Positions 43,118-47,768 of a stretch of DNA of 64,000 bases are shown here, one piece after another (the stretch's first letter is position 1; every line of letters starts with the position of its first letter). The DNA comes from an uncultured Clostridia bacterium (GTDB lineage: Bacteria; Bacillota; Clostridia; TANB77; CAG-508): positions 15,526 through 79,525 of the forward strand of contig CAKPCF010000004.1 of NCBI GenBank assembly GCA_934141445.1, read 5' to 3'. The notes under the pieces were generated by a model, which saw only the letters and a list, made by a program, of their open reading frames with translations, was not told the origin of the DNA and made no database searches. The translations under genes and the position numbers were made by a program.

Positions 43118-43759
43118 TTAATTAGCTTTCTTGTGCCAAAATACTACTTTTAAATGTCTAAGTTTAAATATAAAAGCTCCTAATACAGCTACTGTAGCAC
43201 CACAAGTGTCAATTAAAACATCTGTAAATCTGCTAGTTCTTCCTACAATAAATTTTTGATGAAATTCATCAGTACAAGCATATAAAAAGCAAAATAGTAT
43301 TGTAACTAATAAGTATTGCCATTTTACTTTTCCTTTGCTTTGATATATTAAATTTATAAATAATAAAGCTAGCACAAAAAATTCGCTTGCATGAGCGAAT
43401 TTTCTAACCTTTACTTCGTATTTTTTTACAATTTTATTTATTTTTGCTTGTCTTTCTTTTTCTTGTTCTTCTTTAGTCTTAATATCATCCACTACTGAAT
43501 TTGTGCTATTTTTTATATCATTTGTTTTACCTTGTGCAAGTGTATTTGATGCATCAGAATTAGTAAAATTTAAACTATTGCTCGTGTTAGAGTTCTCAAC
43601 CGCATTGCTTGAAACAGCCTGTGTTACTTTTAAAGCATCCTCTATTAAGCCTTTACTTGTTGAATGAGATTCTGCTCCAGTCATCTCGGACATTGTAAAA
43701 ATAAGTAACATCCACGCAATTATTAAAATTATAGAAATTATTTTTTTAGTCTTATTCAA
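43118..43759 (-). CDS. VanZ-family membrane protein
   Basis: HASEFFVLALL, DEFHQ.F..GR, DVLIDTCGA. Confidence 0.8.
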   Translation of the reverse strand: MNKTKKIISIILIIAWMLLIFTMSEMTGAESHSTSKGLIEDALKVTQAVSSNAVENSNTSNSLNFTNSDASNTLAQGKTNDIKNSTNSVVDDIKTKEEQEKERQAKINKIVKKYEVKVRKFAHASEFFVLALLFINLIYQSKGKVKWQYLLVTILFCFLYACTDEFHQKFIVGRTSRFTDVLIDTCGATVAVLGAFIFKLRHLKVVFWHKKAN

Positions 43760-43881
43760 TTTTGTTAGATTTATCTCCTTTTTAATTCACATTATTCTTA
43801 ATGTCATTTCTCATATATATTATATATATCATAAAATAAAGTATTTATACTAGTTTTTAATATACATTTTTTATTATAAGT

Positions 43882-44961
43882 CTATTTTTCAAAAATATCT
43901 TCTCTTAATATATCCCATAGCAATTGCATCATTATTGCTGTTATTGGTAAACTTAAATAATCTGAATTTTCACTATTAGCATGTGCTATATTGTTTCTCA
44001 CGTTTAGTTCTTCTGGCTTAAATAGCATATTTAATAACTTTGAGTATTCTTTCTTAAAAAATGAATTTATATATTTAGAAGTTATCATATTTCCTAAAGT
44101 AATCTTTGAATTTTTGCCATTTTCGATATCAATAAATTCTTTAAAGAAAATCAATTTAGTGTCTTTGTCTTCTTCTGTTACTATTTTGTATTTTAAGAAC
44201 ATATCGTATAAAAATTTTCTTCCATATTTTGGGTTGCATGGAATTTCTTTTACCATTTCACTACTTAAAAAAATATCATAAAATTTTTGTTCTTCTTCAG
44301 TAAGTATTATTTTTTCCAATTTAATTTTTTGAGATAGTTCTTCAAATAAGCTATACATTATTTTGCTATCTAATTGAATTATTAAAAATCTTTCTATTAA
44401 AGTTGGTAATATAAAAGTTGTTCCATAGGCATGTTCATTCGTTATAACTGTTAGCTTTGTTTGACCATTTTTAGCCATTTCTTGTGCCAGCCTGTCCATA
44501 TTTTGTTTTCCAATATATAAAGTATCTAAATATTCTTTTAAAGCTCTATCATATATTTCTTCAAATCTGATAGTAGTTTTCATATTTGATATTACTGGTA
44601 TTCTTTTAGATAACTCTGGATTTAATATTAAATTTGTATGATAGTTCAAATAAATATTTCCTAAATAATATATAAAAGATAATTTAGCTATATGTTTATT
44701 TATAAGTAATTTCTTTTCATTCTCACTTTCAAAACTCCCCTTTGGTTCTGGAAAAGTAGAATTTTTAACATCAAACTTAATTATTTTATATACATCATCT
44801 AATATCTTAGTTTTTAATTCAGCTCTTTTTGCTTTATCTTGCTCTTGTATAAGTTCAACTACTTTTTTATCTATGTATTGTAACATCGGTTCTGGATTAG
44901 TAAGATATAGATTGTTTTTATTATTCATATTATAATTTTTCTTGTATAAAAAATCTTCCAT
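43882..44961 (-). CDS. HEPN-domain protein (putative RNase toxin / abortive-infection-type)
   Basis: 359 aa. The Rx4H motif RNNIAH is encoded at 43998-43981 (verified by hand), 32 residues from the C-terminus and embedded in predicted helices. An AAAGGAG RBS is present. The N-terminal 300 aa belong to no family I recognise. Confidence 0.6.
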   Translation of the reverse strand: MEDFLYKKNYNMNNKNNLYLTNPEPMLQYIDKKVVELIQEQDKAKRAELKTKILDDVYKIIKFDVKNSTFPEPKGSFESENEKKLLINKHIAKLSFIYYLGNIYLNYHTNLILNPELSKRIPVISNMKTTIRFEEIYDRALKEYLDTLYIGKQNMDRLAQEMAKNGQTKLTVITNEHAYGTTFILPTLIERFLIIQLDSKIMYSLFEELSQKIKLEKIILTEEEQKFYDIFLSSEMVKEIPCNPKYGRKFLYDMFLKYKIVTEEDKDTKLIFFKEFIDIENGKNSKITLGNMITSKYINSFFKKEYSKLLNMLFKPEELNVRNNIAHANSENSDYLSLPITAIMMQLLWDILREDIFEK

Positions 44962-44983
44962 ATAACTCCTTTAGTTTTATTAT

Positions 44984-45184
44984 CTATTTTTCCATTTTCT
45001 TTATTAGTTTAGCAATATCTAATTTTTCTAGTTCTGAACTTTCAGTCTTTTCTATGTAGTCTATTGCATTTTCTATCCATAGATTCTTGTTTCCTGTGTA
45101 TGCTATTTTAGCATCATTTAAATTTGTTTCTAATTCTCCGTTCTTTAAAATTAAAACATTTTTGTCTGCCAGTTCATCTAGCAT
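44984..45184 (-). CDS. Hypothetical 66-aa acidic protein, upstream partner of the HEPN gene
   Basis: ORF track. It lies 22 nt upstream of the HEPN start on the same strand. The RBS is weak and the family unknown. Confidence 0.4.
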   Translation of the reverse strand: MLDELADKNVLILKNGELETNLNDAKIAYTGNKNLWIENAIDYIEKTESSELEKLDIAKLIKKMEK

Positions 45185-45295
45185 TTACTCAATACCATTT
45201 TTCTTAATAAGTCATCAATTTTAAACATGTTTGAGTTAGATTGGAATCACTTTAGGAAAAATATAAGTTGTCTAAATTCCAGAATATCTAAAAGA

Positions 45296-46393
45296 TTACT
45301 TTATACTATCTAATTTAATTTTTACTTTTAGCTTTTCAAATATTTGATATATAATATTTTTAAAATGCTTTTCAAATAATATTATTCTTGTTTTATCTAT
45401 CGCTGTACATACAACAAAAATAAAGAATACTTTAACTATTACATGTGTAATTAAAAAATTAGAATTTAAATAAGTTGCATTCGGTGAAAGTTCATTCCAT
45501 AACCAATAACTAATCGTTCTATTATCAGATATTAAATAAACCCCTAATACAGAAGATGAAATCCAATTTATAAAGTTTGATTTTAATTCAATATTTTTAA
45601 ATATTAAAAACATTGAAACTGATGCCACTATACATAAAAAGCTATTTTGAGTTGAAAAATATGTTGCTTTACTTAATAGTTTATTTGCATGTAAAATTTC
45701 ACTTATGAAATCTATAAAAATTGGTGACAAAAATAATAATATTATTGAAATTATAGATATAATTTTTGTTTTTATAGATAATTTATTATCATGATATAAT
45801 CTTATATATGCACCTAACATATACATAAAAATAAATATATCAATATTGCTAAATCTCCATGCTTCTGCAGTAAAAGTTGGAACGATACTCAATATAATAA
45901 ATAATGTTAAAAGTAATTTCTTAAAAGTGATTTCATCCAATTGCTCAATTAATTTATTTATATATGGAATCAGCATATATAACATAATATAGAATATAAT
46001 GAACCAATTACCCCAAAAAATTGGAAATATCGCTTTTATAAAATTCTTAATATTAAATTTTGTAATGCCACTAACTATGCCTATCATCATAAATAAAATT
46101 GAGTAAAATAGCATTTCACCAATTAATAATATTATCTTTTTATAATTTACTTTAGATGTAATCATAAAATATCCAGTTATTAAAATAAATATATTACAAG
46201 CAAATTTACCACCCATTGAAATAATCTGCAAAACATATACATTAAAATTTAATTTTTCAATATCAAATTCTGTATGAACTACATAATGATGTAATATAAT
46301 TAAAGCCATACAAAAAATTCTTAATAGTTCAATACTAGAAATTCTGCTTTTAGTTGAATTGTCAGCTTTTATCATTTTCTTTTTTCCTCTCAT
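45296..46393 (-). CDS. Acyltransferase-3 family membrane O-acyltransferase
   Basis: SIELLRIFCMALIILHH start motif and 10 TM helices. Confidence 0.8.
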   Translation of the reverse strand: MRGKKKMIKADNSTKSRISSIELLRIFCMALIILHHYVVHTEFDIEKLNFNVYVLQIISMGGKFACNIFILITGYFMITSKVNYKKIILLIGEMLFYSILFMMIGIVSGITKFNIKNFIKAIFPIFWGNWFIIFYIMLYMLIPYINKLIEQLDEITFKKLLLTLFIILSIVPTFTAEAWRFSNIDIFIFMYMLGAYIRLYHDNKLSIKTKIISIISIILLFLSPIFIDFISEILHANKLLSKATYFSTQNSFLCIVASVSMFLIFKNIELKSNFINWISSSVLGVYLISDNRTISYWLWNELSPNATYLNSNFLITHVIVKVFFIFVVCTAIDKTRIILFEKHFKNIIYQIFEKLKVKIKLDSIK

Positions 46394-47768
46394 TTTTTAA
46401 CTTTTTTATGCTATTATTTAACATTTCATAACATTCTTTTATTACATTTTTATTTAATATCCATGTCAAAGCTATAAACATAACTAAATATATAATGCCA
46501 CCAGCTAGCCAATTAAAGCATTGTGTACAAATAAGAAAAAATATAGTTAATGAAAACATATATATATACATCTTTTTGGTAATTTTAACATTTTTCAGAT
46601 CATAAGTAGAATATATTACCCAAGTAATTAAAGTTAGTACCGTTGCAAAGGCTATTGAAATAGTATTTTTAAAAATAACAACTGCTATAATATTATATAT
46701 AATTGAAATCATTAGCATACTAACAACTACTTTAAAATATTTTTTTTCATTTTTATTTACTTTATATAAATTAACATATAAAGCATTAATCAATATCATA
46801 TATGGAAACACTGAAAATGTTATTGCTATTATATTTAATGATAGTATATATTTTTTCATAAAATATTTTACTATAAATGCTAATGCAAAATATCCTAAAC
46901 TTGCAAATCCGCCTAAAGTAATTAAATAGTTCTTTAATTTTTCTATGCTTTCATTACTATTATTAGTAAATAAGTAATTATAAAATGTAACTGAAATAGC
47001 ATTAAATAATGTATTTATTATATTTAACATAGAAACAGCAAAAGAATAATATGCAAAATCTTCTGTGGTTAAAAATAATTTAACAAACCATTTATCAATT
47101 CCAAATAATGCAACTACAGATAAGTTTCCTAATAATACAAGAATCCCCATTTTAGTAACATTTTTTATATCTGTTGGTTTTATAGGTTTAATATTGCCAT
47201 AGTTTTTTCTTAATTTAATTTCAAAAATCATTAAAGTTACACTATGACTTATAAATATTGCTAAACAATACAAAACATAGATTTTGCTTTTTAATAAAAG
47301 TGCCAAAATTATATTTAGAGCAGTATAAATCAAAGTATATACCTTTATAACTTTTGTATATTGATTAAATTCTCCAGTTGCTTGAAAAACACCTTTGTAA
47401 AAAGTACATAAATTTGCAGGCAAAATAGTTATTGCAAATAATATAAAAACTAAATTTTCTGTCAAAATTCCTATCAATAAAATCAATAAACTGATTATCA
47501 TTTCAGCAATTGATATAAATTTATGTTCGCCTTTTAAAATTCCTTTATCTATATTTTTAAAGTTTTTTCCGCCATATTTTATAGATAAGCCATCTAAATA
47601 TCCAAAGTGAAGTAACCCTACATATGAAATTAAAAGCGTATAAGTTTTTAATTCTGCATATTCTTTTATTGGTAATATTGCTGGAACTACAAATCCAACA
47701 ATTATCCCTGCTAATAGTTGAATAAAATTAGCTGAAAATACTTTAGTTATAGCTTTTTTTATATTCAT
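46362..47768 (-). CDS. Oligosaccharide flippase (Wzx-like), locus B
   Basis: 468 aa with about 12-14 TM helices. Assigned by MOP-flippase-like topology and context. Confidence 0.65.
   Translation of the reverse strand: MNIKKAITKVFSANFIQLLAGIIVGFVVPAILPIKEYAELKTYTLLISYVGLLHFGYLDGLSIKYGGKNFKNIDKGILKGEHKFISIAEMIISLLILLIGILTENLVFILFAITILPANLCTFYKGVFQATGEFNQYTKVIKVYTLIYTALNIILALLLKSKIYVLYCLAIFISHSVTLMIFEIKLRKNYGNIKPIKPTDIKNVTKMGILVLLGNLSVVALFGIDKWFVKLFLTTEDFAYYSFAVSMLNIINTLFNAISVTFYNYLFTNNSNESIEKLKNYLITLGGFASLGYFALAFIVKYFMKKYILSLNIIAITFSVFPYMILINALYVNLYKVNKNEKKYFKVVVSMLMISIIYNIIAVVIFKNTISIAFATVLTLITWVIYSTYDLKNVKITKKMYIYMFSLTIFFLICTQCFNWLAGGIIYLVMFIALTWILNKNVIKECYEMLNNSIKKLKNERKKENDKS

What the first reader, a model, noticed from the sequence alone, without database searches (positions are those of the whole stretch)
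43882..45184. HEPN (RNNIAH) toxin-like gene with small upstream partner wedged between two glycan loci
The 359-aa protein carries the HEPN Rx4H signature RNNIAH 32 residues from its C-terminus (codons verified at 43998-43981). Its N-terminal 300 residues are unfamiliar to me. As far as I recall, the overall length and motif position are close to RnlA/LsoA-type toxins (about 357 aa, Rx4H near residue 320). In those systems the antitoxin is downstream, whereas here the only candidate partner is a 66-aa acidic ORF 22 nt upstream, and the downstream neighbour is vanZ. The pair interrupts an otherwise coherent run of envelope genes, which is a typical position for a defence or addiction module. It may be an uncharacterised HEPN toxin-antitoxin or abortive-infection pair.
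Basis: partly seen in the sequence, partly recalled or inferred. Interest (0 to 1): 0.6.

Follow-up and report, generated by a model that had tools for sequence, protein, structure and literature searches.

The report
Solo HEPN gene beside a dead nuclease stub
The 359-residue protein is a real, conserved member of a rare, uncharacterised branch of the HEPN (predicted RNA-cutting) proteins that sits among changing anti-phage genes at the edge of capsule gene clusters in gut Clostridia, while its supposed small "antitoxin" partner is only the leftover tail of a deleted OLD-type nuclease gene.

Summary
A 359-aa ORF (43882-44961, minus strand) carries RNNIAH at residues 322-327. A 66-aa acidic ORF lies 22 nt upstream, and glycan genes lie on both sides.

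The toxin-antitoxin reading does not hold. The 66-aa ORF is the 3' tail of an OLD-family (ATPase-TOPRIM) nuclease gene. In one related contig it runs on in frame from such a gene, and in another the frame is open for 118 codons. A 94%-identical HEPN gene keeps only the last 10 codons of the tail. No other relative has it.

The large protein belongs to a rare family, with 123 clusters at 50% identity among 1.8 billion representatives. E190, N320, R322, N323 and H327 are nearly invariant. Its C-terminal half matches Pfam DUF4209 (the C6orf70 HEPN family) just below threshold. The N-terminal half matches nothing. It is not RnlA/LsoA-like.

Its neighbours change from genome to genome: Old, AbiL, KAP/PDC-S49, Abi_2, WYL, type I R-M. 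About half of the informative contexts lie at the end of a glycan gene block.

The best reading is a stand-alone, Abi-like HEPN RNase in a defence hotspot. The function is inferred, not shown. This scan noted the same family before on other DNA (e1-690230). Interest is modest.

The parts
43882..44961 (-). Gene for the 359-aa HEPN-family protein (stop codon 43882-43884).
   Evidence: The ORF is. The family has 123 clusters at 50% identity. The AF2 model has pLDDT 91.8 and pTM 0.91. dN/dS is 0.32 against the 94% relative.
44461..44961 (-). N-terminal all-helical domain (aa 1-167) with no detectable relatives. Conserved D64 and G101.
   Evidence: There is no Pfam, NCBIfam, PADLOC or PHROG match. 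The PDB profile search finds nothing. hhalign against the C-terminal half gives 0.1% probability. Helices are at 24-39, 43-67, 80-113 and 133-163.
43885..44460 (-). C-terminal HEPN-like domain (aa 168-359) of the DUF4209/C6orf70 type, with an insert of about 60 aa (roughly aa 215-275).
   Evidence: Pfam PF13910 scores 20.1 bits against a cut-off of 22.3. Of 55 relatives, 39 match at E<=0.01 and 13 at about the cut-off. hhalign to bona fide DUF4209 proteins gives 88%, E 2.8e-6.
43981..43998 (-). RNNIAH, the Rx4H motif (R322, N323, H327). Predicted catalytic site.
   Evidence: Coordinates are. The residues are nearly invariant. The motif sits in a short helix at 321-326 in the model. It aligns with NLRNxxxHG of DUF4209 proteins.
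44392..44394 (-). Codon of E190, in the LPxLIE motif of the first long helix of the C-terminal domain.
   Evidence: E190 is nearly invariant. Bona fide DUF4209 proteins have a similar ILIPQ(I/L)E motif. hhalign did not align the two motifs, so the resemblance is my reading.
44984..45184 (-). The 66-aa ORF. It is the 3' remnant (C-terminal tail) of an OLD-family ATPase-TOPRIM nuclease gene and starts at an internal Met codon.
   Evidence: In L016 the same sequence lies in frame behind a 475-aa AAA_21/OLD-TOPRIM ORF, after one TAA and 17 codons. In L017 that codon is GAA and the frame is open for 118 codons. The 475-aa ORF best matches the PADLOC 'Old' model. The gene body is not found in the window's own genome.
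44993..45016 (-). Junction at the 3' end of the remnant, where the homology to the two sets of relatives overlaps.
   Evidence: Window and L016/L017 match only over 45186-44993. Window and L009/L010 match only over 45016-43128.
43118..43759 (-). VanZ-like membrane protein gene. It is the conserved downstream neighbour in three lineages.
   Evidence: Pfam VanZ E 4e-20. VanZ also follows the HEPN gene in L009/L010 and L018. DNA homology to L009 ends at 43128.
45296..46393 (-). Acyl_transf_3 gene, the last gene of the upstream glycan block.
   Evidence: Pfam E 1e-20. An Acyl_transf_3 gene also precedes the intact Old-HEPN-VanZ run in L018.

Best explanation
The 359-aa gene encodes a stand-alone HEPN-family protein. 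It has a family-specific helical N-terminal domain and a C-terminal DUF4209/C6orf70-type HEPN domain. That domain's nearly invariant R322/N323/H327, probably together with E190, would form a metal-independent endoRNase site.

The most likely role is that of a single-gene abortive-infection-type effector. In this reading the enzyme is kept inactive by its own N-terminal domain or by low expression, is switched on by a phage cue, and cuts RNA. This step is inferred from what is known of other solo HEPN Abi proteins and is not shown here.

The gene lives in a recombination and defence hotspot at the 3' end of a surface-glycan gene block. The 66-aa ORF upstream is not an antitoxin. It is the tail of an Old-type (ATPase-TOPRIM) nuclease gene that once preceded the HEPN gene, as it still does in a distant relative, and whose body has been deleted.
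For: Shown:
- The motif and E190 are nearly invariant over 55 relatives.
- DUF4209 is matched by 39 of 55 members at E<=0.01 and by 13 of 55 at about the cut-off. hhalign to bona fide DUF4209 proteins gives 66-88%, E 5.5e-5 to 2.8e-6.
- DUF4209 is the C6orf70 HEPN family, predicted catalytically active and noted in R-M related operons (PMC3710099).
- The gene is under purifying selection: dN/dS 0.32 overall and 0.19 in the HEPN half.
- The family is rare and patchy. It occurs in 1 of 399 genomes sampled in the window's class and 2 of 301 in a related order.
- No neighbour is conserved across about 15 contexts.
- The neighbours include known or candidate defence genes: Old, AbiLi/AbiLii and PDC-S49 by PADLOC, and Abi_2, SocA_Panacea, WYL and type I R-M by Pfam.
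- An intact Acyl_transf_3 - Old - HEPN - VanZ run exists in L018.
Against: - Foldseek on the confident whole model and on the C-terminal model finds no HEPN or any other structure in the PDB or BFVD. The HEPN fold therefore rests on sequence profiles only.
- The query itself is 2 bits below the Pfam cut-off.
- There is no PADLOC, PHROG or NCBIfam model, and no match on phages or plasmids.
- There are no expression or activity data.
- The gene has kept the same neighbourhood (VanZ, glycan block) across 38-49% identity. That stability is unusual for a mobile defence gene.
- The small ORF shows dN/dS 0.21 against L016 (7 synonymous and 7 nonsynonymous changes), so some retained use of the stub cannot be excluded.
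Confidence: 0.6

Rival explanations
1. Old nuclease plus this HEPN protein form a two-gene defence module (as in L018). The window carries a decayed version in which only the HEPN half survives.
For: The run Acyl_transf_3 - Old (662 aa) - HEPN - VanZ is intact in L018, whose HEPN is 38% identical. The window and L009 keep nested 3' stubs of an Old-type gene in the same place. P-loop NTPases lie next to the HEPN gene in six contexts. These are Old or its stub in L018 and the window, KAP in L009 and L034, AbiLi in L001, and an AAA_23 ATPase in L024.
Against: Only one intact pair was seen, and it is syntenic with the window, so it may reflect a single event. The Old proteins of L018 and L016 are only about 27% identical over the part that aligns. 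Both best match the PADLOC model of the single-gene Old system. In L016/L017 the same Old tail is followed by an unrelated 306-aa gene. Most relatives have no Old gene nearby. The HEPN gene stays intact and constrained without it.
Confidence: 0.12
2. The protein is an accessory RNase or RNA-binding regulator of the surface-glycan locus rather than an immune gene.
For: About 7 of 13 informative contexts lie at the 3' end of a glycan gene block. In these the gene is co-oriented with the block, often with a short gap (27-93 nt). The HEPN-VanZ block is the only DNA shared between the window and L009, and it lies between two different glycan cassettes.
Against: The family is not found in more than 99% of the sampled relatives, which do have glycan loci. 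Other members sit next to a type I R-M system, a Tn916-type Xis, a transposase or metabolic genes. The glycan contexts are partly one inherited neighbourhood and so are not independent.
Confidence: 0.1
3. One reading: a HEPN toxin neutralised by the 66-aa acidic protein, forming a type II toxin-antitoxin or Abi pair.
For: The two ORFs are 22 nt apart on the same strand. The small one is acidic, with pI 4.7. Its dN/dS against L016 is 0.21. The exact 66-aa sequence is present on 33 contigs.
Against: The ORF is the in-frame tail of an Old-type gene. It is absent, apart from its last 10 codons, beside an intact 94%-identical HEPN gene. It is absent beside all other relatives. Elsewhere it sits in front of an unrelated gene.
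Confidence: 0.04
4. The gene is an inactive or decaying relic with no present function.
For: Its former neighbour has decayed. There are no expression data. The N-terminal half evolves faster (dN/dS 0.48).
Against: The full-length ORF is intact in every strain cluster seen (P0001-P0005). The catalytic residues are kept. dN/dS is well below 1.
Confidence: 0.05

Closest known systems
DUF4209 / C6orf70 (ERMARD) HEPN family, Pfam PF13910 (Anantharaman et al. 2013, PMC3710099)
   Same: The C-terminal sequence block is shared: TLGxxL ... LLxxLF ... LN(L/I)RNxxxHG. Pfam matches are just below or at the cut-off, and hhalign reaches 88%. One distant member lies behind a type I R-M operon, as the paper notes for this family.
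   Different: The bona fide bacterial DUF4209 proteins found here are about 580-600 aa with a long, different N-terminal region. This family is about 330-390 aa, has its own N-terminal domain, and has about 60 extra residues inside the HEPN domain. The query scores below the Pfam cut-off.
Single-gene HEPN abortive-infection proteins of Lactococcus (AbiD/AbiF = Pfam Abi_2, AbiJ, AbiU2, AbiV; HEPN assignment in PMC3710099)
   Same: Both are solo proteins of similar size with a C-terminal Rx4-6H HEPN domain and a family-specific N-terminal part. Both have no cognate antitoxin and lie among other defence genes. An Abi_2 gene lies about 1.2 kb away in L011.
   Different: No sequence match to any Abi Pfam or PADLOC model. 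No phage phenotype is known for this family.
RnlA/LsoA (RNase LS) toxins with RnlB/LsoB antitoxins
   Same: Similar length, and an Rx4H motif near the C-terminus.
   Different: There is no profile or fold match. The N-terminal part is all-helical, not the RNase H-like or TBP-like domains described for this family (PMC3710099). There is no conserved adjacent antitoxin.
Old (P2 Old-type, OLD-family ATPase-TOPRIM nuclease), a single-gene defence system in PADLOC
   Same: The gene from which the 66-aa ORF derives (L016, 475 aa plus tail) and the gene upstream of the HEPN gene in L018 both best match the PADLOC 'Old' model. Both carry AAA_21/AAA_15 and OLD-like TOPRIM domains.
   Different: In the window only the last 66 codons remain, with no ATPase and no TOPRIM. 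The gene body is not found anywhere in the genome.

Membership tests
HEPN superfamily | Conserved Rx4-6H motif near the start of the last core helix | tested here: met
   R322-x4-H327 is nearly invariant in 55 relatives, with N320 and N323. It is predicted helical at 321-326.
HEPN superfamily | Profile similarity to an established HEPN family | tested here: met
   DUF4209 is matched by 39 of 55 members at E<=0.01, best 2.9e-7. hhalign gives 66-88%. One member also touches HEPN_RiboL-PSP at E 0.003.
HEPN superfamily | All-alpha four-helix core fold, seen by structure comparison | tested here: inconclusive
   The models are confident and almost all-helical. Foldseek finds no HEPN structure, with best E 0.9 to 2.6. 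The model coordinates could not be inspected.
HEPN superfamily | Metal-independent endoRNase activity | not testable with these tools
   Needs an enzyme assay.
DUF4209 / C6orf70 (PF13910) | Score over Pfam's gathering cut-off (22.3 bits) | tested here: not met
   The query scores 20.1 bits. About 13 of 55 relatives reach the E-value that corresponds to the cut-off.
DUF4209 / C6orf70 (PF13910) | Shared overall architecture with bona fide bacterial members | tested here: not met
   Four bona fide members are 581-599 aa. Only the last 60-170 columns align.
RnlA/LsoA toxin family | Sequence or fold similarity of the nuclease (Dmd-binding/HEPN) domain | tested here: not met
   No RnlA Pfam match in 55 members. 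No PDB chain is found by the family profile at E<=10. Foldseek finds none.
RnlA/LsoA toxin family | Adjacent cognate antitoxin (RnlB/LsoB) | tested here: not met
   The downstream gene is VanZ. No neighbour is conserved across contexts.
Type II toxin-antitoxin pair | The two genes co-occur as a pair in other genomes | tested here: not met
   The small ORF has 3 clusters in 5.8 billion. It is absent beside all other HEPN relatives and is present beside an unrelated gene.
OLD-family nuclease (for the 66-aa ORF) | Contiguous with an ATPase-TOPRIM ORF in relatives | tested here: met
   In L016 it is in the same frame after one TAA. In L017 the frame is open for 118 codons, with GAA at that codon. 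The 475-aa ORF matches PADLOC Old at 3.5e-19 and Pfam AAA_21/OLD-like_TOPRIM.
OLD-family nuclease (for the 66-aa ORF) | Own ATPase and TOPRIM domains present, i.e. a working gene | tested here: not met
   A stop codon lies directly upstream of the ATG. Homology starts at 45186. The 475-aa body has no match in the 99.5%-complete genome.

The most novel reading that the evidence does not exclude
This HEPN family may be functionally tied to surface-glycan loci. It could be an RNase stationed at the end of capsule gene blocks that couples the state of the envelope, or attack on it by phage, to RNA cleavage. It might act together with whichever NTPase (Old, KAP, AbiL-type) lies beside it, rather than merely hitch-hiking in a recombination hotspot.
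Probability: 0.1. Interest if true: 0.7.

Novelty: new variant of a known kind. Interest (0 to 1): 0.33.

Why it matters
If the inferred function holds, this family would add a short, single-gene HEPN effector with an unknown sensor domain to the list of anti-phage genes of uncultured gut Clostridia. It is missing from the copies of PADLOC, PHROGs and NCBIfam searched here. It would also give an experimental handle on the bacterial side of the DUF4209/C6orf70 family, for which I found no functional study in the searchable literature. The locus also illustrates how defence genes turn over at the edge of capsule cassettes: three lineages carry nested stubs of one Old nuclease gene. It is a caution as well, because small acidic ORFs next to toxin-like genes can be gene debris.

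Tried and rejected
- Foldseek of the whole model and of the C-terminal model against the PDB, and of the whole model against BFVD, gave nothing significant.
- phmmer and profile searches of the PDB gave only chance hits.
- PADLOC, NCBIfam and PHROGs gave nothing for either ORF.
- An internal-duplication test of the N-terminal against the C-terminal half gave nothing.
The 13-sequence alignment gave few loci because it depends on one exact motif.
- tblastn against plasmids and phages found no match.
- The promoter and terminator scan was uninformative in this AT-rich DNA: 25 sites found against 31 expected, and no terminators.
- The composition profile showed no island signature.
- A direct blastp of the 66-aa ORF against the L018 Old protein was not significant. 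The link to Old rests on L016/L017 and on a motif-level resemblance only.
- The literature search for ERMARD plus HEPN found nothing.
- I considered and rejected a HEPN-MNT type pair, because there is no nucleotidyltransferase neighbour, and a programmed read-through of the L016 stop, because a nonsense mutation is the simpler reading.

Full report
**1. What is in the sequence**

On the minus strand, an ORF at 43882..44961 encodes 359 aa. RNNIAH is at residues 322-327 (nt 43998-43981), 32 residues from the end. A 66-aa ORF (44984..45184, pI 4.7) ends 22 nt upstream. The gap holds an AAAGGAG ribosome-binding site, and a TAA stop sits directly before the small ORF's ATG.

The upstream genes are Acyl_transf_3, a 468-aa multi-span protein, GT2, GT2, Wzy_C, GT1, GT1 and a Bac_transf protein. 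The downstream genes are VanZ, Na_Ca_ex and NAGPA, followed by a second glycan block with Polysacc_synt_2, DegT and Bac_transf.

**2. The large protein**

An exhaustive search of 1.84 billion cluster representatives finds 123 relatives at E<=0.001, of which 26 are at E<=1e-30. In an alignment of 55 full-length members (19-50% identical to the query), the nearly invariant positions are D64, G101, E190, F314, N320, R322, N323 and H327. The Rx4H motif is therefore a family feature and not a chance string.

- **Pfam.** DUF4209 (PF13910) matches residues 279-333 at 20.1 bits, against a cut-off of 22.3. The same family is hit by 39 of 55 members at E<=0.01, with the best at 2.9e-7. Thirteen of 55 reach roughly the cut-off level.
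- **What DUF4209 is.** It is the C6orf70 family, assigned to the HEPN superfamily and predicted to be catalytically active, with bacterial members noted in R-M related operons (PMC3710099).
- **Bona fide members.** I fetched four true DUF4209 proteins from 401 genomes of the phylum. They are 581-599 aa long. hhalign of the family against them gives 66% (E 5.5e-5) over residues 280-340. With the C-terminal half alone it gives 88% (E 2.8e-6). LNxRNNIxHG aligns with NLRNxxxHG.
- **Difference from those members.** This family has its own N-terminal domain and, by my reading of the models and alignments, about 60 extra residues between the first long helix (LPxLIE, E190) and the beta-hairpin/TLG segment.
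- **Other libraries.** There are no matches in PADLOC, NCBIfam or PHROGs. The N-terminal 167 residues match nothing and are not a repeat of the C-terminal half.

**3. Structure**

AlphaFold2 with the family alignment gives a confident model (pLDDT 91.8, pTM 0.91). It is almost all helical, and the motif lies in a short helix at 321-326, before the last long helix at 338-352. The C-terminal half alone also models well (pLDDT 90.5).

Foldseek finds no significant neighbour in the PDB for either model, nor in BFVD for the whole model. The HEPN assignment therefore rests on profiles and the motif, and 3D comparison has not confirmed it.

**4. The small ORF**

It has no family. There are three clusters in 5.8 billion: itself, a read-on variant, and a 65-aa copy at 91% identity.

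- **L016.** That copy lies directly behind a 475-aa AAA_21 / OLD-like TOPRIM ORF. It is in the same reading frame, separated by one TAA and 17 codons.
- **L017.** In a second contig the TAA is GAA, and the frame is open for 118 codons across the junction.
- **Identity of the parent gene.** The 475-aa ORF best matches the PADLOC model 'Old' at 3.5e-19.

The 66-aa ORF is therefore the C-terminal tail of an OLD-family nuclease, beginning at an internal Met codon. The window's genome (99.5% complete) has no match to the 475-aa body, and it has the tail only once.

DNA homology between the window and L016/L017 covers only 45186-44993. Homology with L009/L010, whose HEPN protein is 94% identical, covers only 45016-43128. 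L009 therefore keeps just the last 10 codons of the tail. In front of them it carries an unrelated 187-aa gene and a KAP NTPase. The three lineages carry nested 3' stubs of 118, 66 and 10 codons.

The HEPN gene is intact without the small ORF in L009/L010. tblastn with the ORF on the HEPN-bearing loci held at that point finds nothing significant apart from that 10-codon stub, and none of the later loci has a called small upstream gene.

One caveat remains. The stub's dN/dS against L016 is 0.21, based on only 14 changes. That may date from when the gene was whole.

**5. Where the family lives**

A MAG of a Clostridia bacterium from roe deer (L018, HEPN 38% identical) has the run Acyl_transf_3 - Old (662 aa, PADLOC Old 1.2e-48) - HEPN - VanZ - rml genes - Wzz. 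This is the intact form of the window's arrangement.

Other contexts:

| Locus | Upstream of the HEPN gene | Downstream of the HEPN gene |
|---|---|---|
| L001-6 (49% identical; a very common gut species) | Flippase, Dockerin protein | AbiLi, AbiLii ... sortase, Wzz |
| L008 | Flippase, Acyl_transf_3, GLF | DUF6119 ... SocA_Panacea, Wzz |
| L011 | Y1 transposase, radical SAM | 258 aa, Abi_2 |
| L012 | WbsX, Hexapep | 334 aa |
| L013 | HGD-D, BcrAD | Tn916-type Xis |
| L024 | Flippase | AAA_23 ATPase |
| L034 | KAP NTPase | 548 aa |
| L029 | (contig end) | WYL-WCX |
| L019 | PDDEXK_2 transposase | — |
| L022 (IMG/VR contig) | hsdM, hsdS, hsdR, DUF4357 | ParB-methylase |

The neighbours are unrelated to one another. 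No further Old gene is adjacent.

The family is patchy. It occurs in 1 of 399 genomes sampled in the window's class, which is the window's own genome. It occurs in none of 8 genomes of the same family. It occurs in 2 of 301 genomes in the order of L018's genome. Pattern scanning found it in 4 species-level genomes. It is not on known plasmids or phages. dN/dS against the 94% relative is 0.32, with 0.48 for the N-terminal half and 0.19 for the HEPN half.

**6. Reading**

- **Shown.** This is a conserved, constrained, rare HEPN-motif protein of the DUF4209 type. It has no fixed partner and lies among turning-over known defence genes, and about half the time at the 3' end of a glycan block. The small ORF is debris of an Old gene.
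- **Inferred.** The protein is an RNase acting as a single-gene, Abi-like effector, and the N-terminal domain is its sensor or regulator.
- **Rivals.** They are weighed in their own sections.

The stable HEPN-VanZ neighbourhood and the glycan-edge position remain only partly explained. Recombination at capsule cassettes, with breakpoints at 45016 and 43128, is the simplest account.

**7. Earlier notes of this scan**

Note e1-690230, on another genome (the 378-aa relative beside AbiL), reached the same view of the family: a separate HEPN gene at the ends of capsule blocks beside changing defence genes. My contexts were gathered independently and agree with it. The family is therefore not new to this scan.

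**8. Verdict**

The protein is HEPN and lies in a defence-type location. It is not RnlA-like and not a toxin-antitoxin pair. It is a new variant of a known kind, and the interest is modest.

Noticed in passing
window 43128-45016 compared with L009 4946-6834: The HEPN-VanZ block (1.9 kb, 93.7% DNA identity) is the only DNA shared between the window and the closest relative's contig. The glycan genes upstream and the genes downstream of VanZ are both different. The block therefore sits between two swapped cassettes, which looks like capsule-type switching by recombination.
   Followed up: partly
L016 2173-3093 and L017 2453-3136: A 306-aa protein with no Pfam or PADLOC match follows the Old tail by 8 nt. 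In L016 it is followed by an AbiLi-type ATPase (PADLOC 4.3e-93). It occupies the slot that the HEPN gene has in the window and may be another unknown defence gene.
   Followed up: partly
L012 3632-4636: The 334-aa gene whose start overlaps the HEPN relative's stop contains LRNYLVHA, another Rx4H-like motif. It has no Pfam match. It may be a second HEPN-like protein in tandem.
   Followed up: no
L016 1913-1915 compared with L017: The Old-type gene of L016 carries a TAA where L017 has GAA. This is a nonsense mutation 83 codons before the end, so this Old gene seems to be decaying in several strains by different routes.
   Followed up: yes
L009 2153-4114 and L034 2905-4851: KAP-family P-loop NTPases lie just upstream of the HEPN gene in two unrelated contexts. 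The L009 protein matches the PADLOC candidate system PDC-S49 at 1.5e-52. The L034 protein has no PADLOC match.
   Followed up: partly
window 46362-47768 (-): The 468-aa multi-span protein in the flippase position of the glycan block has no Pfam match at E<=1e-5. The flippases in the related loci all match Polysacc_synt.
   Followed up: no
L022 6087-7900 (IMG/VR contig): The most distant relative seen (320 aa, 23% identical) overlaps the end of a DUF4357 gene by 4 nt, directly behind a complete type I R-M operon and in front of a ParB-methylase. This fits the R-M association reported for DUF4209.
   Followed up: partly
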